Positions 3,068-62,539 of a stretch of DNA of 64,000 bases are shown piece by piece. The notes under the pieces were generated by a model that saw nothing but the letters and a program-made list of their open reading frames with translations, was not told the origin of the DNA and searched no databases. The first letter of the stretch is position 1, and each line of letters begins with the position of its first letter. Position numbers and translations under genes: made by a program. Source of the stretch: Minisyncoccia bacterium (GTDB lineage: Bacteria; Patescibacteriota; Minisyncoccia; Phycocordibacterales; UBA918); contig JBGSJJ010000004.1 in assembly GCA_041742075.1 (NCBI GenBank), forward strand, positions 35,900-99,899. The letters are read 5' to 3'.

Positions 3068-5338
3068 ATGAAGTATATAAAGAAGTATTTTAAAAAAGCA
3101 AAACGGTTTGTAAAACAACATGGTTTGGACCTCTTAATTGACGGCTTAATCGTGCTGTTTGTGGCTGGTTTAGTGATAGCCGGTGGTCTATTTATTTGGA
3201 TATCCACTCTAGAAATCCCTGACCTGTCTGCTTTTGAACAACGTCGCATTCTTCAGTCAACAAAAATCTATGACCGCACCGGAGAAGTTCTCCTTTATGA
3301 CCTCCACCAAGATGTGCGCCGGACAATTGTACCGTTTGAAGAAATCTCCTATCATATTAAAAATGCTTCCGTCGCAATTGAGGATGCAAATTTTTATAGT
3401 CACTATGGTATATCACCACGCGGTATTCTTCGCGCCGCTTTTTCTAACTTAGGTGAAGGTGACCTTTTGGGTGGTCAAGGTGGTTCTACTATTACTCAAC
3501 AGGTTATTAAAAACTCTATTCTTGAACAGGAAAAGCGTCTCACTAGAAAAGTGAAGGAGGCAATTCTGGCACTTAAAATTGAGCGGGTATTAACTAAAGA
3601 CGAAATTCTTTCGTACTACCTCAACGAATCTCCGTATGGCGGTACTATTTATGGCGTCGAGGAAGCTAGTCAAGCCTATTTTGGTAAAAGTTCTAAAGAT
3701 ATAACCCTCCCTGAAGCTGCTTACTTAGCTTCTCTTCCCCAAGCACCTACCTACCTATCACCTTATGGAGAAAATAAAGACGCCCTTGATGTCCGTCAGA
3801 AGCGCGTTTTAACCCGCATGAAAGAGCTAAACTTCATCACAGAAGAAGAATATAATTCCGCATCAAACACAGTGGTTGAATTCCAGCCTCAAGTATTAAG
3901 TGGCATTCGTGCTCCGCACTTTGTGATGTATATCAAAGAGCAGTTAGAAGAGAAGTACGGGGAGGAAGCGCTAGCCGAAAAAGGCTACCGAATTATTACC
4001 ACTCTTGACTATGAACTACAGGCTGAGGCGGAACGTATTGTAAAAGAAAAAGCGCTTGAAAACGTTACTAAGTTCAACGCCAGTAATGCCGGACTCGTTG
4101 CTATTAACCCACAAACTGGCGACATATTAACCATGGTAGGTTCGAGAGACTACTTTGATGAGGAAATTGATGGAAACTTCAACGTGACCCTGGCTAAACG
4201 ACAACCTGGTTCATCTATAAAGCCCTATGTATATGCCTCAGCTTTTGCTAAAGGCTATCGTCCAGAAACAATTGTCTTTGACCTTCCAACTCAGTTTAGT
4301 ACCGCTTGTGAACCATGGGATACCAGTAATGAGAACCCCTGCTACGCTCCAAAAAACTATAACAACATTTTCGTCGGCCCAATTAGTTTGCGTAATGCCC
4401 TCGCTCAGTCACTCAACATACCGGCAGTAAAAGTACTTTATTTAACTGGTCTTAAAGACGCCATTAAACTAACGTCTGACTTAGGTATAACAACTTTAAA
4501 TGACCCTGACCGACTGGGGCTTACGCTTGTGCTTGGTGGTGGTGAAGTAACCTTACTTGAACACACTGGTGGCTATGGTGTGTTTGCCAACGAAGGTGTT
4601 CGAGCTGACAGACGAAGTATTTTACGCATTGAAGACATTAATGGAAACGTACTTGAAGAACCAAAAGAAGTTACCACAAGAGTATTAGACCGAGATGTGG
4701 CCCTTATGATTTCAGACATACTTTCAGACAACAACGCCCGTACACCTCTCTGGGGAAACTACTCGCAAGTATTTTTTGGAGAGCGTGATGTCGCTGTTAA
4801 GTCAGGTAGTACCAACAACTCACGTGATGCCTGGATTATGGGATACACACCTAACCTCGCGGTTGGGGTATGGGTTGGTAATAATGACAATGCACCAATG
4901 AATGGTCTTTCCGGCTTAATCGCAACGCCGATGTGGCGACAATTTCTTGATATTGCTATTACAAAGATTGAAGATCAATCATTTCCCGAACCACCACCAC
5001 CAGATCCTAACTTAAAACCAATTCTTCGAGGTGCTATTATGGATCCGACGTTTATGCTTTCACAAGTTCAAGCTGGAAGTAGTTCACTTGACATAGCTGG
5101 TATAACTGACAACATCCACTCAATTCTTCACTTTGTTGATCGGTCTGATCCTACTGGACCATATCCAACCAATCCCGGCCGAGATGGTCAATATGAATAT
5201 TGGGAGTATAGTGTACAAAAATGGAAAGAATCTACGTATGGAGCACTTTTGGAATCAGTAAAAGCCGAGGAAACAATTAAAGAGGATGAAGAAGAGGAAG
5301 ATCCAGAACCTACACCACGCAGTAGAAGGTCTAGATAA
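3068..5338 (+). CDS. class A penicillin-binding protein (bifunctional glycosyltransferase/transpeptidase, PBP1A-like)
   Basis: 756 aa; N-terminal TM helix; GT51 motifs (EDANFYSHYGISPRGILRA, GGSTITQQ); transpeptidase region with SxxK-like STNN..KSG; acidic C-terminal tail. Confidence 0.85.
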   Translation: MKYIKKYFKKAKRFVKQHGLDLLIDGLIVLFVAGLVIAGGLFIWISTLEIPDLSAFEQRRILQSTKIYDRTGEVLLYDLHQDVRRTIVPFEEISYHIKNASVAIEDANFYSHYGISPRGILRAAFSNLGEGDLLGGQGGSTITQQVIKNSILEQEKRLTRKVKEAILALKIERVLTKDEILSYYLNESPYGGTIYGVEEASQAYFGKSSKDITLPEAAYLASLPQAPTYLSPYGENKDALDVRQKRVLTRMKELNFITEEEYNSASNTVVEFQPQVLSGIRAPHFVMYIKEQLEEKYGEEALAEKGYRIITTLDYELQAEAERIVKEKALENVTKFNASNAGLVAINPQTGDILTMVGSRDYFDEEIDGNFNVTLAKRQPGSSIKPYVYASAFAKGYRPETIVFDLPTQFSTACEPWDTSNENPCYAPKNYNNIFVGPISLRNALAQSLNIPAVKVLYLTGLKDAIKLTSDLGITTLNDPDRLGLTLVLGGGEVTLLEHTGGYGVFANEGVRADRRSILRIEDINGNVLEEPKEVTTRVLDRDVALMISDILSDNNARTPLWGNYSQVFFGERDVAVKSGSTNNSRDAWIMGYTPNLAVGVWVGNNDNAPMNGLSGLIATPMWRQFLDIAITKIEDQSFPEPPPPDPNLKPILRGAIMDPTFMLSQVQAGSSSLDIAGITDNIHSILHFVDRSDPTGPYPTNPGRDGQYEYWEYSVQKWKESTYGALLESVKAEETIKEDEEEEDPEPTPRSRRSR

Positions 5339-35599: not shown

Positions 35600-36514
35600 A
35601 TGACTCTTACACAGCTCAAGCGACAATTCATGGAATACCTCGAGATTGAGCGGGGTCGAAGTGTCAAAACGGTTGAAAATTATGATCGCTACCTCACTCG
35701 TTTTTTTGCCTACGCCAAAACCGATGACCCGGCCAAGATTACTGAAGATATTGTTCGTGAGTTTAGAATGTATCTCAACCGTCAACCTGGCACGAAGGTC
35801 GGTGGACGGATGGACCCGATGAAGCGTCGGACTCAAAACTACTATTTGATTGCACTCCGGGCTTTTTTGAAGTATGTCCGCAAGCGTGGCGTTACCTCCC
35901 TCTCACCTGAGGTGATTGAGCTTGCGAAAGTGCCAGAGCGTTCGCTTGATTTGATTTCTCCAAATGAGCTCGATCGGCTTATGAAGGCACCAGCGAGTGA
36001 TACGCCCCAAGGACTCCGTGACCGAGCAATTTTAGAACTCCTATTTTCTACTGGCTTACGTATCTCTGAACTTTGTGCTCTTTCTATTGACGATGTTGAC
36101 TTAACGCGCGATGAATTTTCCGTCCGTGGTAAAGGAGACAAAGTCCGGGTGGTCTTTCTCTCTGACTCGGCTAAACACGCCATCAGCACTTACCTAAAGA
36201 AAAGAAAAGATTTAGACGACGCACTGTTTGTGCAGTATGGTAGAAAGGCACATGCCGCTAAAGACTTGCGACTCTCACCAAGAGCAGTACAGCGAGTACT
36301 AAAAACCTATGCTACTAAAGCTGGTATCACGAGAAAAGTCTCACCACACGTTATTCGTCATAGTTTTGCCACTGACTTACTCAGTAACGGAGCCGACTTG
36401 CGTTCGGTGCAAGCCCTCTTAGGTCATGCCAACATTGGTACCACCCAAATCTATACCCACGTTACCGACAAACATTTAAGAGACGTGCATAAAAAGTTTC
36501 ATAGTCGAAAATAG
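35600..36514 (+). CDS. tyrosine recombinase XerC/XerD family
   Basis: 304 aa; N-terminal core-binding domain; catalytic R..ELLFSTGLRISE, HVIRHSFAT, LLGHANIGTTQIYTHV (R-H-R-Y motifs). Confidence 0.8.
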   Translation: MTLTQLKRQFMEYLEIERGRSVKTVENYDRYLTRFFAYAKTDDPAKITEDIVREFRMYLNRQPGTKVGGRMDPMKRRTQNYYLIALRAFLKYVRKRGVTSLSPEVIELAKVPERSLDLISPNELDRLMKAPASDTPQGLRDRAILELLFSTGLRISELCALSIDDVDLTRDEFSVRGKGDKVRVVFLSDSAKHAISTYLKKRKDLDDALFVQYGRKAHAAKDLRLSPRAVQRVLKTYATKAGITRKVSPHVIRHSFATDLLSNGADLRSVQALLGHANIGTTQIYTHVTDKHLRDVHKKFHSRK

Positions 36515-39797: not shown

Positions 39798-39847
39798 TGG
39801 ACGCTACTGTACTACGGATTTGAAGTGTGTCAAGTATTTGGACTCTT

Positions 39848-39963
39848 GGGGAAACGGTCACTCTCGTGGATATTTTAGTTCACTCCACTCCTAAAATATC
39901 TCACTCACTCGACCCCCACTCGTGTCGACCCAGAGGGTCCTCGACACTCGGTTCGATTCCCCG
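39848..39963 (+). repeat. 116-bp direct repeat, copy 1 (ends in tRNA T-arm-like GGTTCGATTCCCCG)
   Basis: Identical in all 116 positions to 41716-41831 by manual alignment. Confidence 0.8.
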
Positions 39964-40137
39964 TGAGTCGCACAACGGCAAACGACGACAACACTATCGT
40001 GTTGTCGTCGGCCGATTGTGGACTATAGGGGAAATTTACCGAACCAATTTAGGGACTATTTGATGAAGTTCTGGGTGACGTATCAGTCCTGCCCTACCCT
40101 GCAACAGATTTTATAAAAGAATAATCAAACCGAATTA

Positions 40138-40821
40138 TTACAAGGTTTTAAGCATCTGTCGCATCATTTCTATCTCCGCTGTCTGTGTCTCCATAATCGC
40201 CTTGGTCAAGTCAGTCATTTCCTTGTGTTCGATGTGTGGTTGTACGCTCTGTGCCATCATTATTGCTCCCATGTGATGCATGATCATGTCTTCCAAAAAT
40301 ACCTTATCCAAAGCAGCTCCACTTAATGCTGATAGGTCGCGCATCATTGGTTTGTAGTCTTTAGGATCAGCTACATATGCTTCACCATACCAGCTCTGGT
40401 ACCAACTTTTCATCATAGCGATTTCTTTCTCTTGAGCCACCACAATATCTTCAGCCAGATTCTTAATTTCAGGCGTCGAACCACCACGTGCGAGCACTTC
40501 CTTTGCAGTATCTACTGCTTCTTGGTGATGTGGAATCATCCCTTCGAGAAACTCACGTTCACTTTTCACCATCATCATTGAGTGATCCATACCTCCCATC
40601 ATGCCCATACTAGAATCAGTGTTACTGGTCGGTGTCGTTGGTTTCCCCATAAGTGACCCGTCAGGCATACGGTGCATCCCAGCTGGAACATCATCTTGGG
40701 AATGCATCCCACCGTTCATGCCCATTGAGTAATCAGTGGATTTGGTATTAAAGCTATATGCAACTGCTCCAATAACAAGTACAGCGAGTCCAATAATGAT
40801 TATGATTGATTGATTTTTCAT
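40138..40821 (-). CDS. DUF305-domain protein (copper-resistance associated), Met/His-rich N-terminal region
   Basis: 227 aa; N-terminal TM; MxxM/MGM repeats; two DUF305 signature blocks (MIPHHQEAVDTA and MIMHHMGAIMMA). Confidence 0.7.
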   Translation of the reverse strand: MKNQSIIIIIGLAVLVIGAVAYSFNTKSTDYSMGMNGGMHSQDDVPAGMHRMPDGSLMGKPTTPTSNTDSSMGMMGGMDHSMMMVKSEREFLEGMIPHHQEAVDTAKEVLARGGSTPEIKNLAEDIVVAQEKEIAMMKSWYQSWYGEAYVADPKDYKPMMRDLSALSGAALDKVFLEDMIMHHMGAIMMAQSVQPHIEHKEMTDLTKAIMETQTAEIEMMRQMLKTL

Positions 40822-40831
40822 ATTTATTTTG

Positions 40832-41377
40832 TTACATGACCATGGTCATACTGTTAAGCATCAAAAGCATCCAAAGACACATACCGATCATGAAGGTTGC
40901 CTCAATGATTGTGACGGTTGAGAGTGGGAGTTTGAAGTATGTGCCAAGACACACACAGTGGAGCGACTCTTTCTTCATGAGTGACTGCAAAGCTCCGAAT
41001 AGACTAGCGCTGTATATAAACAGAGTGATAAGTGTCGCAGGAAAAATCAAGAGCTGGAGAATAAAGAGGATACCGAGGGTAATTTCTAAGAACGGATATA
41101 CCTGAGCGTATACAATGCTTTGCTTAGCCAGTGGATCATATTTAGCAAATCCTTCTGCAAAACCAACTACGTCTGATAGTTTAATAACTCCAAAGAATAC
41201 CAGTACCCAACCCATCAGGTGGGACATATAGTCTGGGTACATATGGAACTGTACGGTATATAAAGAAACGACTGCGGCCACAACGTAGATTAGTGCAATT
41301 GGCCAGTATGACCAGATACTTGCGGGAGTTGCATGATGTATTTTAACCGTACTGTTTGTTGAATGATGATGTTCCAT
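40832..41377 (-). CDS. 4-TM membrane protein (DoxX/MauE-like) with His-rich N-terminus
   Basis: 181 aa; MEHHHSTNSTVKIHH N-terminus; four hydrophobic helices; CVC motif; sandwiched between csoR and the DUF305 gene. Confidence 0.5.
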   Translation of the reverse strand: MEHHHSTNSTVKIHHATPASIWSYWPIALIYVVAAVVSLYTVQFHMYPDYMSHLMGWVLVFFGVIKLSDVVGFAEGFAKYDPLAKQSIVYAQVYPFLEITLGILFILQLLIFPATLITLFIYSASLFGALQSLMKKESLHCVCLGTYFKLPLSTVTIIEATFMIGMCLWMLLMLNSMTMVM

Positions 41378-41379
41378 AT

Positions 41380-41649
41380 TTATTTTCGTTTTAAACGATA
41401 CACTTGTAATATTTCTCCAACAGGTTTCTTTACGTCTCCTGACTTAATTTGATTCACTACACAATGTGAAAGGTGCTCTTCAAGTAGTATGTCTTCAATA
41501 TTTGAAAGAGCTTGCTTTACGGCTGAAGTTTGCGTGATGACGTCAATGCAGTATGCATCTTTCTCAATCATGCCCTGCAGTCCACGTACCTGTCCCTCGA
41601 TTATTTTAAGACGACGGACTAACTTCTTGTGTGATTCTTTCATACACAC
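41380..41649 (-). CDS. csoR: CsoR/RcnR-family metal-sensing transcriptional repressor (copper-sensitive operon repressor-like)
   Basis: 89 aa; RLKIIEGQVRGLQGMIE..YCIDVITQ...H..HC pattern with the C-H-C metal-ligand triad. Confidence 0.75.
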   Translation of the reverse strand: MCMKESHKKLVRRLKIIEGQVRGLQGMIEKDAYCIDVITQTSAVKQALSNIEDILLEEHLSHCVVNQIKSGDVKKPVGEILQVYRLKRK

Positions 41650-41715
41650 AAGTATACCCCCTAGGGGGTATTTTGTACAAGTATTTGCTTCGTGAAATAT
41701 TACCCGTGAACTATA

Positions 41716-41831
41716 GGGGAAACGGTCACTCTCGTGGATATTTTAGTTCACTCCACTCCTAAAATATCTCACTCACTCGACCCCCACTCGTGTCGACCCA
41801 GAGGGTCCTCGACACTCGGTTCGATTCCCCG
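41716..41831 (+). repeat. 116-bp direct repeat, copy 2
   Basis: Identical to 39848-39963. Confidence 0.8.
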
Positions 41832-42062
41832 CTCGTCTCACAAAATACAATCATTGAAACTAACGTTTCAATTTCATTATTTTGTGGACTCACGGGGAAT
41901 GATCCCACGGTCACTAAGTAGAATTGTTCGCTTCACTCCAATTCTTCTAAGTTCCGCTGGACGCGCCTCACTCGCCTGACGGCATCGCTCCGGCGGTTCG
42001 ATTCCCACGAAAGGCGCGCAGGCGCCTTTCTCGTGAGCCCACTCGCTCACTTTGTTCACTCG

Positions 42063-42133
42063 TGGACTCACGGGGAATCGAACCCCGGACTCATCCATGC
42101 CATGGATGCGTATTACCTCTATACTATGAGCCC
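42063..42133 (-). tRNA. tRNA-Ala (anticodon GGC)
   Basis: Minus-strand read GGGCTCATAGTATAGAGGTAATACGCATCCATGGCATGGATGAGTCCGGGGTTCGATTCCCCGTGAGTCCA: 7-bp acceptor with G3:U70, D/anticodon/T arms fold, anticodon loop AT-GGC-AT, discriminator A. Confidence 0.75.
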
Positions 42134-48249: not shown

Positions 48250-49719
48250 TTATACGTTGTGTTCCTTGGCTATTTCAGCTAAGGCCGCCGCTTCCTCCTC
48301 AGCCTGTTTGGTTTTTCCTGCCTCAGATAGGGCTATCAGTTCAGCTTCAGGTAGTGCCAGTAAAGCTTTGGTGCGTTCCTCGAGGTAGTCTGGCGTATTC
48401 TTGCTGGTATCAATCAGTACCTCTTCTAGTAATGCGTGCAGTACATATCCTAGTCTTTTCCCCTGCTTTTCCCCAGAGATTTCCATAATTTTATCCCCAG
48501 TTATGTTGAGTAGTTTTACTGAAATTGGGTCGCGTAAGGCCTCATCTACCATGGCTTTATACTTGCGAAAGCGGAACGGCTGTTCTTTAGGTCGACCCGT
48601 ACCAATCCGATCACAGACTCGTAAGTTAAGCAGGTTATCAATTTGGTCTTCACCAATCCGGACAATAGTCCGCCTGACTGCCGAGAGCGTGATTTCGTCA
48701 GGGTCCGAGAAAAACATGTGCCAACGAACCAACTTCTCTACCGTGTCTATTAGTTCGCGCGGTAGCTTTAATCTATCGAGGATTTTCCTAGTCATTCTGG
48801 CTCCAATCACCTCATGACCAAAGAAGCTGTATTGCTTATTTTTACCACCTTCTCTTCGACTCGCCGGCTTCCCGATATCATGAAGTAATGCAGCGAGGCG
48901 CATTTCAGTACTGTACCCTTTGTCTGCGGCCGCCTGCAGAGTTCTAAGGAGGTGCTCATAGACGTCGTAGGCATGAATACCGCCCTGCTCGCAACCTATC
49001 GAAGCCTTAATCTCTGGTAGGACTGTATCGATAAGTCCGAGTCGTTCAAGAAAGATAATACCTTGCATTGGGGTCGGTGAGTCGATAATGCGGAGAAACT
49101 CTCCCGCCACTCGTTCGATGGAGATACGTTCTATTTGCTTGTTATTTCTACTAATAGCCGCCATGGTTTCTGACTCAATAATGAAGCCAAGTTCTGACGC
49201 GAGTCGTACTGCGCGCATCATGCGAAGCGCATCTTCTAAAAAGCGTTCGTCCGGGTTACCTACCGCTTTAAGACGTTTTTCGGCAATGTCTTCCCTGCCA
49301 CCATAAAGATCAACCACTGACTGGTCTTTGATGCGGTACGCAATAGCGTTTACGGTAAAGTCTCGGCGCGCGAGGTCATCATGTAGCGAGACACCAAAAG
49401 CCACGCTGTCAGGCCGGCGAGCATCACTATAGCCACTTTCAGTTCGGTACGGAGTTACTTCAACGACTGCTAAGCGCGGGTCCACGGCGGTTTCATTTTT
49501 CACACCAACCGTACCGTAGTCATTATTGCAAAAGCTATCAGGAAAGAGCGCTTGAATCTGGTCAGGATGGGCACTCGTGGTAAAGTCCCAGTCCTTAGGT
49601 ACTTTACCGAGCACGAGGTCCCGCACACAGCCACCAACTATATACGCTTCAAAGCCACCCGATTCGAGCGTATTAGCGATAGTGTGGACTTCGGGCGGTA
49701 TGTCAGTCAAACGAATCAT
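48250..49719 (-). CDS. cca: CCA-adding tRNA nucleotidyltransferase with HD domain
   Basis: 489 aa; polymerase-beta head GGCVRDLVLG...DWDF; HD-domain LHDIGK; C-terminal helical tail. Confidence 0.8.
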   Translation of the reverse strand: MIRLTDIPPEVHTIANTLESGGFEAYIVGGCVRDLVLGKVPKDWDFTTSAHPDQIQALFPDSFCNNDYGTVGVKNETAVDPRLAVVEVTPYRTESGYSDARRPDSVAFGVSLHDDLARRDFTVNAIAYRIKDQSVVDLYGGREDIAEKRLKAVGNPDERFLEDALRMMRAVRLASELGFIIESETMAAISRNNKQIERISIERVAGEFLRIIDSPTPMQGIIFLERLGLIDTVLPEIKASIGCEQGGIHAYDVYEHLLRTLQAAADKGYSTEMRLAALLHDIGKPASRREGGKNKQYSFFGHEVIGARMTRKILDRLKLPRELIDTVEKLVRWHMFFSDPDEITLSAVRRTIVRIGEDQIDNLLNLRVCDRIGTGRPKEQPFRFRKYKAMVDEALRDPISVKLLNITGDKIMEISGEKQGKRLGYVLHALLEEVLIDTSKNTPDYLEERTKALLALPEAELIALSEAGKTKQAEEEAAALAEIAKEHNV

Positions 49720-50366: not shown

Positions 50367-50586
50367 CAAACGGCCGGCCTGAAAGCAATAGCTATCAGGC
50401 CGTTTGCCGTTTGTAGCACCCGCCAGGACTCGAACGGCGGAGTCGGGGACCCTTTGGGCCGACGAGCCGCGTCCAGCGTTCTTAGTGAGCAAAGCGAACT
50501 TAGAAAAAGCGGGACAAGTCCTGGCGGGTAAGAAACCACTAACTATTTAATGGAGACTTGGATTGAAATGTTACACTTAAGTTACT

Positions 50587-51894: not shown

Positions 51895-52147
51895 CACATA
51901 TTTTCAGCAAAAAAGTCCCCAATCGGGGATTTTTTGCTTTGAAAATAGTGTGCGGCCAGAGCAACCTGCTGGGAGCAGGTTGCGTGGGTAATCGAAAAAG
52001 CTTTTGAGATAAATTATGAGTTTTCGAAATAATTTATCCAAAAGGTGTACTGCTCCTGTAAGGAGGCGAATTTACCCCTGGCAATAATGAACGTAGTGAG
52101 AAATTCTACCTAGGATTCCGGGGATCATTACCCCAGGGACATAATCC

Positions 52148-54074: not shown

Positions 54075-54120
54075 AAATACAAACAGCGAGACCTTCTTGG
54101 TCTCGCTGTTTGTATTTTCG
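54075..54120 (+). terminator. rho-independent terminator after tRNA-Pro
   Basis: AAATACAAACAGCGAGACC-TTCTT-GGTCTCGCTGTTTGTATTTT. Confidence 0.6.
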
Positions 54121-54445
54121 GCGAGGGAATCGAAGCCCGATTGAGCTATTTTATGAGGTAACGAAATAAAATAGCCAATTGGGGTACTGAAACTGTAAGT
54201 TTCGATTCCCGGCTCCCCAACAAATATAAAAGGCTGGCAAATGCCAGCCTTTTATATTTGTTGGGGAGAGCAAGCAAACTGCTTTGCTTGCGTCCGGAAT
54301 CGAAAGCCGCAGTGATGTGAGCTTGCGAACGAACGAGATGTGGTTAGTTTATGTAATTTGTGATTGATTCCTGCTCAAAAGTATTGCAAAACCACAAAAG
54401 TGTAGTATAGTTTTAATTGGATAAACACATGACAGGGAGGTCATC

Positions 54446-62468: not shown

Positions 62469-62539
62469 GCGGGCATAGTTTAGTGGTAAAATGTCTGCCT
62501 TCCAAGCAGAATATCAGGGTTCGATTCCCTGTGCCCGCA
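62469..62539 (+). tRNA. tRNA-Gly (anticodon TCC)
   Basis: GCGGGCATAGTTTAGTGGTAAAATGTCTGCCTTCCAAGCAGAATATCAGGGTTCGATTCCCTGTGCCCGCA; perfect acceptor stem; anticodon loop CT-TCC-AA; terminator-like hairpin downstream (62585-62630). Confidence 0.8.

What the first reader, a model, noticed from the sequence alone, without database searches (positions are those of the whole stretch)
39848..41831. Two 100% identical 116-bp direct repeats bracket a 1.75-kb copper-homeostasis cassette
Copies at 39848-39963 and 41716-41831 are identical in all 116 positions. Both end in a tRNA T-arm-like GGTTCGATTCCCCG, and they flank exactly three genes (csoR, a His-rich 4-TM protein, a Met/His-rich DUF305 protein). 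Perfect identity implies a very recent duplication or integration event, or ongoing gene conversion. The cassette could be excised or amplified by recombination between the repeats, a possible unit of copper-tolerance mobility.
Basis: seen in the sequence. Interest (0 to 1): 0.65.

Follow-up and report, generated by a model that had tools for sequence, protein, structure and literature searches.

The report
tRNA-tail elements bracket a copper cassette
The two identical 116-bp repeats are copies of an apparently undescribed folded DNA/RNA element that sits behind tRNA genes in tiny "CPR" bacteria and marks where cargo genes, here a copper-tolerance operon, get inserted.

Summary
In detail: 39848-39963 and 41716-41831 are 116/116 identical and bracket csoR, a MauE-like gene and a DUF305 gene. 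The repeats are not an att duplication made by the cassette.

They are two members (E3, E2) of a tandem array of three elements downstream of tRNA-Ala(GGC), which lies on the minus strand at 42062-42133. I call these "anti-tail/tail elements" (ATEs). On the tRNA strand each ATE reads:
- the reverse complement of the tRNA's last ~20 nt;
- a conserved multi-helix core;
- a direct copy of the tRNA's last ~17 nt.

The same design follows tRNA-Arg, tRNA-Gly and tRNA-Pro in this window, each time with arms matching that tRNA. It also follows at least ten tRNA isotypes in more than 100 Paceibacterota metagenome loci, with strong covariation. No Rfam family matches.

Elsewhere, an ATE core plus a perfect tail copy closes cargo islands at tRNA genes: one starts with a tyrosine recombinase gene, one carries an EcoRV-type restriction-modification system without a recombinase. 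The copper module recurs next to other tRNAs. In this window it is bounded more tightly by a 16/17-nt tail-derived direct repeat.

Best reading: a tRNA-tail integration hotspot with a structured att-associated module. The 116-bp identity comes from unit duplication or core conversion. Recombination between the copies could delete or amplify the cassette. Whether ATEs act as folded DNA or as RNA is unresolved.

The parts
42062..42133 (-). tRNA-Ala(GGC), intact, no encoded CCA. Its last ~22 nt (GGTTCGATTCCCCGTGAGTCCA) is the 'tail' from which all the element arms here derive.
   Evidence: ARAGORN; Rfam tRNA 61.5 bits.
41884..42041 (-). E1: first anti-tail/tail element (subtype B2). TGGGCTCACGAG, then an inserted GC hairpin, then GTGGGAATCGAACC, the core (CGTCCAGCG..), and the tail ATTCCCCGTGAGTCCAC. 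The acceptor part of its anti-tail keeps the tRNA's own 5' strand GGGCTCA, which gives G3:U70.
   Evidence: Sequence; tail copy with 1 substitution and 1 deletion against the 24-nt tRNA tail; alignment.
41839..41886 (.). AT-rich hairpin (bidirectional terminator-like) between E1 and E2.
   Evidence: Inverted repeat I3.
41706..41843 (-). E2: copy 2 of the finding (identical block 41716-41831). Subtype B1 core GGGGTCGAG..GAGAGTGACCG. Outer arms degenerate: anti-tail GAGACGAGC, tail TTTCCCCTATAGTTCAC at 41722-41706.
41651..41679 (-). csoR promoter-like site overlapping the palindrome ATACCCCCTAGGGGGTAT (41654-41671), a CsoR-type operator.
   Evidence: The palidrome is also conserved in L017 and, as a variant (TATACCCCCCTGGGGGTATA), in L151. 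The operator assignment is from general knowledge of CsoR operators.
41380..41643 (-). csoR (87 aa).
   Evidence: PF02583, E 1.1e-26; exact protein in Logan contig L001.
40832..41377 (-). His-rich MauE-like 4-TM protein (181 aa).
   Evidence: PF07291, E 1.7e-10.
40138..40821 (-). Met/His-rich DUF305 protein (227 aa).
   Evidence: PF03713, E 4e-42; more than 1300 homologs, the best 70-93% identical, in Parcubacteria/Paceibacterota.
40018..40045 (-). Pseudo tRNA 3' end at the distal end of the cassette: GGTTCGgtaaaTTTCCCCTATAGTCCAC. Its 17 nt at 40018-40034 match E2's tail (41706-41722) 16/17. This is the tight direct repeat around the cassette.
   Evidence: Sequence. The single-strand fold pairs it with E3's anti-tail across the terminator hairpin.
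39976..40017 (.). Terminator-like hairpin (GACGACAACAC/GTGTTGTCGTC) preceding E3.
39839..39975 (-). E3: copy 1 of the finding (identical block 39848-39963). The best-preserved B1 element here: anti-tail GCGACTCACGGGGAATCGAACC, tail TTTCCCCAAGAGTCCA.
   Evidence: Folds: z = -3.5 on the + strand and -3.35 on the - strand, the tRNA/sense strand. First row of alignment A2.
50413..50532 (+). ATE downstream of tRNA-Arg(TCG), with arms matching tRNA-Arg.
   Evidence: The tRNA tail, terminator and anti-tail fold into a ~40-bp hairpin, z = -10.6.
51950..52082 (+). ATE (type A) downstream of tRNA-Gly(GCC), with arms matching tRNA-Gly.
54118..54221 (+). ATE (type A) downstream of tRNA-Pro(TGG), with arms matching tRNA-Pro. 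A further partial anti-tail lies at 54261-54310.

Best explanation
The 116-bp repeats are two copies (E2, E3) of a conserved structured element that lives immediately downstream of tRNA genes in Paceibacterota (CPR bacteria).

Anatomy. On the tRNA strand each element consists of:
- an 'anti-tail', the reverse complement of tRNA positions ~52-73;
- a conserved core with several co-varying helices;
- a 'tail', a direct copy of tRNA positions ~57-73 plus 'CAC'.
The ends therefore pair into a stem with the same sequence as the end of the neighbouring tRNA gene.

Role. Units of [terminator hairpin + element] form tandem arrays behind tRNA genes. The same element closes the far end of cargo islands inserted at tRNA tails. 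I read it as the att-associated module of a family of tRNA-tail-targeting integrative cassettes.

This locus. tRNA-Ala(GGC) is followed by three units (E1, E2, E3). A 1.69-kb CsoR-regulated copper module has been inserted into the tail of E2, leaving a 16/17-nt direct repeat. The module is horizontally mobile among these bacteria and repeatedly lands next to tRNA genes.

The 116-bp identity. It covers only the inner part of the element. It most likely comes from recent duplication or conversion of the core between the two neighbouring units.

Shown: anatomy, tRNA linkage, covariation, cargo association, module mobility.
Inferred: that a recombinase acts on the element, that the stem has to fold, and that recombination between the copies excises or amplifies the cassette.
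For: 1. Arms match the adjacent tRNA. This holds for Ala, Arg, Gly and Pro in the window and in related genomes. Copies are found only downstream of tRNAs, never upstream.

2. The family is large and tRNA-linked. The core pattern GGGGTCGAG-N30-55-GAGAGTGACCG hit at least 120 metagenome loci. 34 of the 122 matches have a same-strand tRNA ending 99-135 nt upstream. A further ~20 have one 143-521 nt upstream, which fits a second or third unit of an array (not inspected individually). The tRNAs span nine isotypes: Ser, Gly, Ala, Trp, Lys, Arg, Val, Phe, Gln. Pro is seen only for type-A elements.

3. Tails track the tRNA. Among the 34 directly tRNA-adjacent elements, 14 tail copies are 17/17 identical to the tRNA and 24 are at least 14/17. 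Mismatched tRNA/element pairs average 7.7/17. The trailer beyond the tail is duplicated in only 3 cases.

4. The fold is conserved. In an alignment of 45 distinct elements, 84% of cells are paired, against 35-44% when partners are slid. 24 of 34 pairs show compensatory changes. The covariation score is 0.394 against 0.148 for shuffles (0 of 500 reach it).

5. The element sits at cargo boundaries.
- L139: tRNA-Lys, then a tyrosine recombinase, C5 methylase and other genes, then an ATE core and a 17/17 tail copy 8 kb away, then a second two-gene cassette followed by another ATE (the contig ends inside its core).
- L062/L108: tRNA-Ala, then a D12 methylase, an EcoRV-like endonuclease and DUF5655, then an ATE core and a 17/17 tail.

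6. The copper module is mobile. It lies beside tRNA-Tyr, tRNA-Ser and other tRNAs, and beside large serine recombinases. Homology to the window stops at the operator and the DUF305 stop codon. Many homologs sit on cassette-sized 1.5-2.1-kb contigs.

7. The cassette has its own tight repeat. A 16/17 direct repeat shares a derived 'TATA' in place of the tRNA's 'TCAC'. A pseudo tRNA 3' end, then a terminator, then E3 follow the cassette.

8. The region is variable. The syntenic locus L004 has tRNA-Ala followed by a different gene and no cassette.

9. Cores are exchangeable. Two 98%-identical strains carry different core types between identical arms.
Against: - No recombinase lies inside or next to the window's cassette. 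The nearest tyrosine recombinase (35600-36514) is a conserved Xer-like core gene, 75-89% identical across syntenic relatives (one more distant relative 66%), and only 25% identical to the L139 integrase.
- Most ATEs carry no cargo and appear conserved at orthologous tRNA loci (82-88% identity). That fits a host-encoded RNA as well as a selfish att module.
- No ATE was found on IMG/VR viral contigs, so no free element with an attP has been seen.
- The tails flanking the cassette are degenerate relative to tRNA-Ala. The insertion could be old, or could have arisen by a different route.
- Short-read graphs cannot exclude an unoccupied site plus an 1868-bp circle.
- Evidence on which strand folds is weak. 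G:T versus A:C counts are 14 to 4 in helix P4 and roughly even in the outer part of P1.
Confidence: 0.6

Rival explanations
1. The elements are genes for a structured non-coding RNA. It would be co-transcribed with, or processed like, the upstream tRNA, and its closing stem would imitate the acceptor/T-stem minihelix of that tRNA. Cargo lands nearby only because the tRNA tail and its copy are ordinary integrase targets. On this reading the 116-mers are a duplicated RNA gene.
For: - The core has conserved unpaired nucleotides and variable, co-varying stems, which is the usual signature of a functional RNA.
- The tRNA-sense strand folds better: mean -21.7 against -15.3 kcal/mol.
- A G:U pair closes P3, and G:T outnumbers A:C in P4.
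- The elements are always on the tRNA strand and are often followed by a terminator.
- Elements at orthologous tRNA-Ala(GGC) loci are conserved.
- E1 keeps the G3:U70 pair.
Against: - There is no room for a separate promoter between the terminator hairpin and the anti-tail.
- The tail copies include the 'CAC' trailer, so they were copied at the DNA level.
- No Rfam family matches.
- A perfect tail copy at the far end of 4-8-kb islands is what an att site predicts.
- The outer acceptor part of the stem is poorly kept, with 25-65% of cells paired.
Confidence: 0.25
2. One reading: the 116-bp repeats are the duplication produced when this cassette integrated (attL/attR), or a simple recent segmental duplication with no wider meaning.
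For: Perfect identity over 116 nt. The repeats bracket exactly three genes. Their ends are tRNA-like.
Against: - The same element exists without any cassette behind tRNA-Ala(GGC) in other genomes, and behind many other tRNAs.
- Copper-module copies elsewhere do not carry it.
- A tighter 16/17 repeat bounds the insert.
- The identical block stops at the T-stem positions, while the outer arms and preceding terminators differ.
Confidence: 0.07
3. The linear order in the window is an assembly choice. The population may really contain an unoccupied site with one element, plus a free or tandemly amplified 1868-bp circle made of the cassette and one element.
For: Same-species contigs L155, L157, L158 and L001 end inside or within 8 nt of a 116-mer; L156 ends earlier, at 42021. 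A de Bruijn graph gives the same picture for both configurations. Many homologous cassettes assemble as isolated 1.5-2.1-kb contigs.
Against: In the integrated order E3 has matching arms (GACTC/GAGTC). The alternative joins would give two elements with mismatched arms. No junction or coverage data favour a circle.
Confidence: 0.08

Closest known systems
Genomic islands and integrative elements at tRNA gene 3' ends (attL/attR direct repeats of the tRNA 3' segment)
   Same: - Cargo sits directly downstream of a tRNA.
- It is bounded by a direct copy of the tRNA's last ~17 nt.
- Identity starts in the T-loop and ends at the 3' end of the gene.
- An integrase lies next to the tRNA in L139.
- Units accrete in tandem, and the cargo is defence or metal-resistance genes.
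   Different: - The distal copy is always preceded by a conserved ~100-nt multi-helix core and an inverted copy of the tail.
- 'Empty' ~175-bp units are the commonest form.
- One core family serves nine or more tRNA isotypes.
- The window's cassette has no integrase.
CTXphi-type folded attP(+), used by mobile elements that exploit the host Xer recombinases (described in PMC3442271 and PMC3089051)
   Same: Two inverted copies of the target-like sequence, separated by roughly 60-110 nt, can fold into a stem that imitates the chromosomal target duplex. After integration the layout is: inverted copy, spacer, direct hybrid copy, at one end of the element.
   Different: The target is a tRNA gene end, not dif. 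The spacer is a conserved structured core rather than arbitrary sequence. No single-stranded DNA stage, phage or Xer dependence has been shown.
Integron gene cassettes and attC sites (PMC4792948)
   Same: Arrays of small cassettes, each ending in an imperfect-palindrome recombination site recognised as a structure. Cargo is variable, and the cassettes carry no integrase of their own.
   Different: - There are no R''/R' core motifs (RYYYAAC/GTTRRRY).
- The stem sequence is dictated by the neighbouring tRNA.
- The cassette carries its own regulator and promoter.
- No IntI-type integrase gene or attI/Pc platform is present.
CsoR-regulated copper operons (for example Bacillus subtilis csoR-copZA, Mycobacterium tuberculosis cso; from general knowledge)
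   Same: A CsoR-family repressor gene comes first in the operon, preceded by a GC-rich palindromic operator (ATACCCCCTAGGGGGTAT).
   Different: The partner genes are a MauE-like membrane protein and a DUF305 protein instead of CopZ/CopA. In L018-L020 the same module sits beside CopA and a multicopper oxidase.

Membership tests
tRNA-targeting integrative element (att duplication) | A direct repeat of the tRNA 3' segment flanks the inserted DNA. | tested here: met
   Window: 16/17 tail-derived repeat at 40018-34 and 41706-22. L062, L108 and L139: 17/17 copies 4-8 kb from the tRNA.
tRNA-targeting integrative element (att duplication) | The insert encodes an integrase or recombinase. | tested here: not met
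   In the window, only csoR, the MauE-like gene and DUF305 lie between the repeats. The feature is met in L139 (tyrosine recombinase) and near the module in L017 and L021 (large serine recombinases).
tRNA-targeting integrative element (att duplication) | Presence/absence polymorphism of the insert between related genomes. | tested here: inconclusive
   L004 (66% ClpB identity) has other content after tRNA-Ala. L002 ends 600 nt after the tRNA without the cassette. No same-species empty site was recovered.
Integron cassette / attC | R'' RYYYAAC and R' GTTRRRY core sites at the base of the hairpin. | tested here: not met
   Reading both strands of 39839-39975 gives only GTTCGAT, GTTCACT and GTTTCCC, none of which fits GTTRRRY.
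Integron cassette / attC | An IntI integrase with attI and Pc adjacent to the array. | tested here: not met
   The only nearby tyrosine recombinase is a conserved Xer-like gene found at the syntenic position in relatives. The array starts at a tRNA gene.
CTXphi-like folded attP | Two inverted target-like sites fold into a stem that imitates the target duplex. | tested here: met
   Anti-tail and tail pair. The inner 8 bp are ~90% paired across 45-53 elements, and the stem sequence equals the tRNA gene end.
CTXphi-like folded attP | Integration of single-stranded DNA by the host Xer recombinases at dif. | not testable with these tools
   The target here is a tRNA 3' end, not dif. No replication or recombination data are available.
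MITE / REPIN-type dispersed repeat | Many copies with the same terminal inverted repeats at scattered sites. | tested here: not met
   The arms differ from locus to locus and equal the adjacent tRNA. In the window the motifs occur only after four tRNA genes.
Known RNA families (Rfam 15, including tRNA, tmRNA, Y-RNA-like and self-cleaving ribozymes) | A covariance-model match. | tested here: not met
   No match to any ATE at gathering thresholds. At E up to 10, E1-E3 have no match. The Pro and Gly elements have only far-sub-threshold chance hits.
CsoR-type copper operon | A CsoR-family repressor with an upstream GC-rich palindromic operator. | tested here: met
   PF02583, E 1e-26. The palindrome at 41654-41671 overlaps a promoter-like site and is conserved in L017 and, as a variant, in L151. 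DNA binding was not tested.

The most novel reading that the evidence does not exclude
The anti-tail/tail element may be a programmable recognition module. It could work as a folded single strand that imitates the target duplex, or as a guide-like RNA carrying both strands of the target. Either way, one recombination system could direct small cargo cassettes to the 3' end of essentially any tRNA gene. That would give CPR bacteria an integron-like gene-capture platform built on tRNA genes.
Probability: 0.3. Interest if true: 0.85.

Novelty: new variant of a known kind. Interest (0 to 1): 0.7.

Why it matters
CPR/Patescibacteria have tiny genomes, and how they acquire genes is poorly understood. 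A conserved, co-varying structured element is tied to tRNA 3' ends, matches each tRNA's own sequence, and closes cargo cassettes for restriction-modification, copper tolerance and integrase islands. Together these would define a main landing pad for horizontal transfer in this radiation.

If its stem must fold to work, it would be a new example of structure- or sequence-programmed site-specific recombination. It also explains a practical nuisance: short-read assemblies of these organisms break at these elements and leave cargo on orphan 1.5-2-kb contigs.

For this locus, copper tolerance is probably a gain-or-loss trait.

Tried and rejected
- **Rfam.** I searched the whole window at gathering thresholds and both tRNA regions at E up to 10. 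Nothing matched the elements beyond far-sub-threshold chance hits.
- **Known ribozyme and RNA classes.** I compared the core by eye with hammerhead, twister, HDV, tmRNA, Y-RNA-like and retron msr-msd designs. No core motif fits. This is from memory plus the Rfam negatives.
- **tRNA or pseudo-tRNA.** ARAGORN and the Rfam tRNA model do not call the elements on either strand. The T-stem is broken in the 116-mer.
- **Viral contigs.** Two IMG/VR scans with type-A and type-B motifs gave only chance matches in coding sequence. One hit was the reverse complement of a phage tRNA-like 5' end.
- **Island-specific integrase.** The idea that the nearby tyrosine recombinase belongs to the island is rejected. 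It is a conserved syntenic Xer-like gene.
- **Integron attC and MITE/REPIN.** Both rejected; see the membership tests.
- **T-loop intron remnant.** The paper on Patescibacteria tRNA introns concerns position 35/36 in the anticodon loop and is not relevant.
- **Literature.** Searches for a prior description of tRNA-downstream inverted tail copies in CPR found nothing.
- **Strand-of-function test.** Counting G:T against A:C gave only a weak bias towards the tRNA strand.
- **Helix P2.** It could not be scored on the MAFFT alignment, because the register shifts between short and long variants.
- **Cassette-free allele.** Exact-protein look-ups of flanking genes found only contigs that break at the repeats.
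Full report
**1. The observation**

The two copies are real. 39848-39963 and 41716-41831 are identical at 116 of 116 positions. With a few mismatches the similarity extends to 39839-39975 and 41707-41843. A 22-mer from the repeat occurs only twice in the window, against none expected.

Between the copies, all on the minus strand, lie three genes:
- csoR, 41380-41643 (PF02583);
- a His-rich MauE-like membrane protein, 40832-41377 (PF07291);
- a Met/His-rich DUF305 protein, 40138-40821 (PF03713).

The palindrome ATACCCCCTAGGGGGTAT (41654-41671) overlaps a promoter-like site upstream of csoR. The organism is a CPR bacterium of the Kaiserbacteria/Paceibacterota group: the neighbouring ClpB-like gene finds 66-70% relatives there.

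**2. What the repeats are made of**

An intact tRNA-Ala(GGC) sits on the minus strand at 42062-42133. Read on that strand, each repeat has three parts:
- It starts with the reverse complement of the tRNA's 3' end. E3 has GCGACTCACGGGGAATCGAACC, against the exact complement TGGACTCACGGGGAATCGAACC.
- It continues with ~90 nt that form hairpins.
- It ends with a direct copy of the tRNA's 3' end. E3 has TTTCCCCAAGAGTCCA, against ATTCCCCGTGAGTCCA.

I call these parts the anti-tail, the core and the tail, and the whole an ATE.

A third, diverged ATE (E1, 41884-42041) lies between copy 2 and the tRNA. Going downstream from the tRNA the order is:
- tRNA-Ala, E1, an AT-rich hairpin, E2 (copy 2);
- the csoR operon;
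- a pseudo tRNA 3' end (40045-40018, GGTTCGgtaaaTTTCCCCTATAGTCCAC);
- a terminator hairpin, then E3 (copy 1).

**3. The design is general and the arms follow the neighbouring tRNA**

In the same window, tRNA-Arg, tRNA-Gly(GCC) and tRNA-Pro are each followed by the same layout: a terminator hairpin, an anti-tail, a core and a tail. The arm sequences match that tRNA, not tRNA-Ala. tRNA-Gly(UCC) has none.

ATE motifs occur nowhere else in the 64 kb. In syntenic loci from related genomes, tail and anti-tail copies are found downstream of tRNAs and never upstream.

The tRNA's own tail, the terminator and the anti-tail together form a ~40-bp hairpin in single-stranded form (z = -10.6 for tRNA-Arg). 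The anti-tail therefore has two possible partners.

**4. A large conserved family**

- 34 of the 122 matches have a same-strand tRNA ending 99-135 nt upstream.
- A further ~20 have one 143-521 nt upstream, which fits a second or third unit of an array. I did not inspect these individually.
- The tRNAs span nine isotypes.

The 116-mer itself has 83 homologous hits. The best, at 82-88%, include elements directly behind tRNA-Ala(GGC). The repeat is thus the tRNA-Ala(GGC) lineage of this family.

Among the 34 directly tRNA-adjacent elements:
- 14 tail copies are 17/17 identical to the tRNA and 24 are at least 14/17, against a mean of 7.7/17 for mismatched pairs;
- identity starts at about C56/G57 in the T-loop;
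- it runs through the discriminator and the 'CAC' trailer, so the copy was made at the DNA level;
- the trailer beyond the tail is duplicated in only 3 cases.

On an alignment of 45 distinct elements, RNAalifold recovers four helices:
- the terminal stem P1;
- P3 (GGUCG:UGACC);
- a GUG:CAC helix that alternates with AUG:CAU;
- a variable hairpin P4 with an apical UGAG..CGAA motif.

With P1 written out to 17 pairs, 84% of cells are paired, against 35-44% when partners are slid. 24 of 34 pairs show compensatory changes. The covariation score is 0.394, against 0.148 for shuffles (0 of 500 reach it).

Two caveats apply:
- The two pattern blocks are invariant by construction.
- P1 'covariation' partly reflects both arms being copied from the tRNA. 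The anti-tail is not needed to rebuild a tRNA, though, so its tracking of the tail argues for selection on pairing.

Pairing is strongest in the inner 8 bp and fades in the acceptor-derived outer part. No Rfam family matches.

At least two further subtypes share the P4 motif: B2 (CGUCCAGCG..GCGGGAC) and A (CCCGAUUGAG..CCAAUUGGGRUACUGAA).

**5. The element sits at cargo boundaries**

*L139.*
- tRNA-Lys is followed at once by a 297-aa tyrosine recombinase, a C5 DNA methylase, a SAM synthetase and other genes.
- Eight kb downstream come a terminator, anti-tail, B1 core and a 17/17 copy of the tRNA-Lys tail.
- A second two-gene cassette follows, then another terminator and ATE, with the contig ending inside its core.

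*L062 and L108.* tRNA-Ala(UGC) and a 17/17 tail copy bracket a D12 methylase, an EcoRV-like endonuclease and a DUF5655 protein. Again an ATE core sits just before the distal tail, and there is no integrase.

*Core swap.* These two strains are 98% identical. Yet the first ATE after the tRNA has a B-type core in one and an A-type core in the other, between identical terminator-plus-anti-tail and tail sequences. Cores are therefore exchangeable between fixed arms.

**6. The copper module is itself mobile cargo**

DUF305 homologs of 70-93% identity are numerous in Parcubacteria/Paceibacterota. Many lie on 1.5-2.1-kb contigs, which is the size of the cassette.

The three-gene module occurs in these contexts:
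- directly after a tRNA 3' end and a second tail copy, next to a large serine recombinase and a restriction system (L017);
- next to another large serine recombinase (L021-L023);
- inside a CopA / multicopper-oxidase island after a tRNA (L018-L020);
- beside tRNA-Tyr, between degenerate tail copies (L151);
- after a tRNA-Ser (L152, L153).

Nucleotide homology to the window (78-87%) stops at the operator and at the DUF305 stop codon. The 116-mer is not part of the module. The syntenic locus L004 has tRNA-Ala followed by a different gene and then the same conserved Xer-like gene. The stretch between tRNA-Ala and xer is therefore a variable region.

**7. How the cassette sits in this locus**

The tightest repeat around the insert is GTGGACTATAGGGGAAA (40018-40034) against GTGAACTATAGGGGAAA (41706-41722), 16 of 17. 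Both share 'TATA' where the tRNA has 'TCAC' and E3 has 'TCTT'.

On the tRNA strand this reads: E2 core, TTTCCCCTATAGTTCAC, the cassette, GGTTCGgtaaaTTTCCCCTATAGTCCAC, a terminator, then E3.

The simplest history is a three-unit array (E1, E2, E3) into whose second tail a ~1.69-kb circle integrated, duplicating the tail.

The 116-nt identical block runs exactly from the complement of the T-stem (GGGG) to the T-stem (CCCC). The outer acceptor arms, the preceding hairpins and the flanks all differ. Together with the core swap in L062/L108, this points to duplication or conversion of the core between neighbouring units rather than an att duplication.

Whatever its origin, 116 bp of identity allows recombination that would delete or amplify an 1868-bp unit.

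**8. A caveat from independent data**

Contigs of the same species from three sequencing runs match the window at 99.9-100%.
- Flanking contigs L155 and L157 stop 30 nt, and L158 25 nt, inside a 116-mer.
- Cassette contig L001 stops 61 nt inside copy 2 and 8 nt short of copy 1.
- L156 stops earlier, at 42021.

A short-read graph cannot tell the integrated order from an empty site plus an 1868-bp circle. The integrated order gives E3 matched arms, which favours it mildly.

**9. Mechanism**

*Shown:* the anatomy, the tRNA linkage, the conserved fold, the position at cargo ends, and the mobility of the module.

*Inferred:* ATEs are the att-associated module of tRNA-tail-targeting integrative cassettes. 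On this view:
- crossover happens in or near the T-loop/tail;
- the tail in the element restores the tRNA;
- the anti-tail exists because the stem must form.

The layout of inverted site, ~60-110-nt spacer and direct site at the far end of an insert is what CTXphi leaves after its folded single strand is integrated by Xer (PMC3442271, PMC3089051). It also resembles integron attC sites (PMC4792948). I rate the folded-strand or guide-like version at about 0.3.

The main rival, at 0.25, is a host structured RNA that merely neighbours ordinary att sites.
- For it: the conserved core, the better fold on the tRNA strand, and a weak excess of G:T over A:C.
- Against it: the lack of promoter space, and the perfect tail copies at island ends.

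The nearby tyrosine recombinase is a conserved Xer-like gene (75-89% identical across syntenic relatives, one at 66%) and only 25% identical to the L139 integrase. It may act in trans, but nothing shows that.

**10. Verdict**

The interesting object is not the copper cassette. It is the tRNA-linked element family that the repeats belong to. I could not find that family in Rfam or in the searchable literature. I may have missed a description in papers outside that library.

Noticed in passing
window 50413-50532, 51950-52082, 54118-54221 and 54261-54310: Anti-tail/tail elements follow tRNA-Arg, tRNA-Gly(GCC) and tRNA-Pro, each with arms matching its own tRNA. tRNA-Gly(UCC) at 62469 has none.
   Followed up: yes
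L062 versus L108 (L108:555-731; L062 reverse-complement 1324-1520): Two 98%-identical strains carry different element cores (B-type versus A-type) between identical terminator-plus-anti-tail and tail sequences. This is a clean core swap.
   Followed up: partly
L108:770-895 and 4400-4527: The restriction-modification cargo is additionally bounded by ~125-nt inverted repeats. This looks like a transposon or invertible segment nested in the tRNA-tail cassette.
   Followed up: no
Proteins P0001-P0120: Dozens of DUF305 homologs of 70-93% identity sit on contigs of 1.5-2.1 kb, the size of the cassette. Assemblies seem to break at both ends of this module in many samples.
   Followed up: partly
Type-A elements, for example window 54175-54191; L028:3530-3575: The type-A motif CCAATTGGGnTACTGAAC is the reverse complement of a tRNA 5' end (acceptor strand, U8-A9, D-arm). 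The opposite strand of type-A elements therefore looks partly tRNA-like. The covariance model does not call it a tRNA.
   Followed up: partly
L053, L063, L130, L152, L153 and others: ARAGORN calls a 'tRNA-Ser' with the odd anticodon ACT next to many elements. I did not check whether these are real, mis-called or intron-bearing tRNAs.
   Followed up: no
Window: all five tRNA genes: None encodes CCA. In all five the discriminator A is followed by C, and in four of them (not Ala) by CA. A CCA-adding enzyme gene (PolyA_pol family, 48250-49719) lies between the tRNA clusters (Pfam annotation).
   Followed up: no
Anti-tails at window 42009-42031, 51960-51985, 54268-54292; L002:4898-4923: Many anti-tails carry a GC-rich hairpin (AGCAA..CTGC..TTGCGT) inserted exactly between the acceptor-derived and T-stem-derived parts.
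   Followed up: no
L017:1-110: The closest copper-module relative (87% nucleotide identity) starts right after a tRNA 3' end and a second degenerate tail copy 57 nt later. No anti-tail or core is present, and a large serine recombinase lies downstream. This is a different att style for the same cargo.
   Followed up: partly
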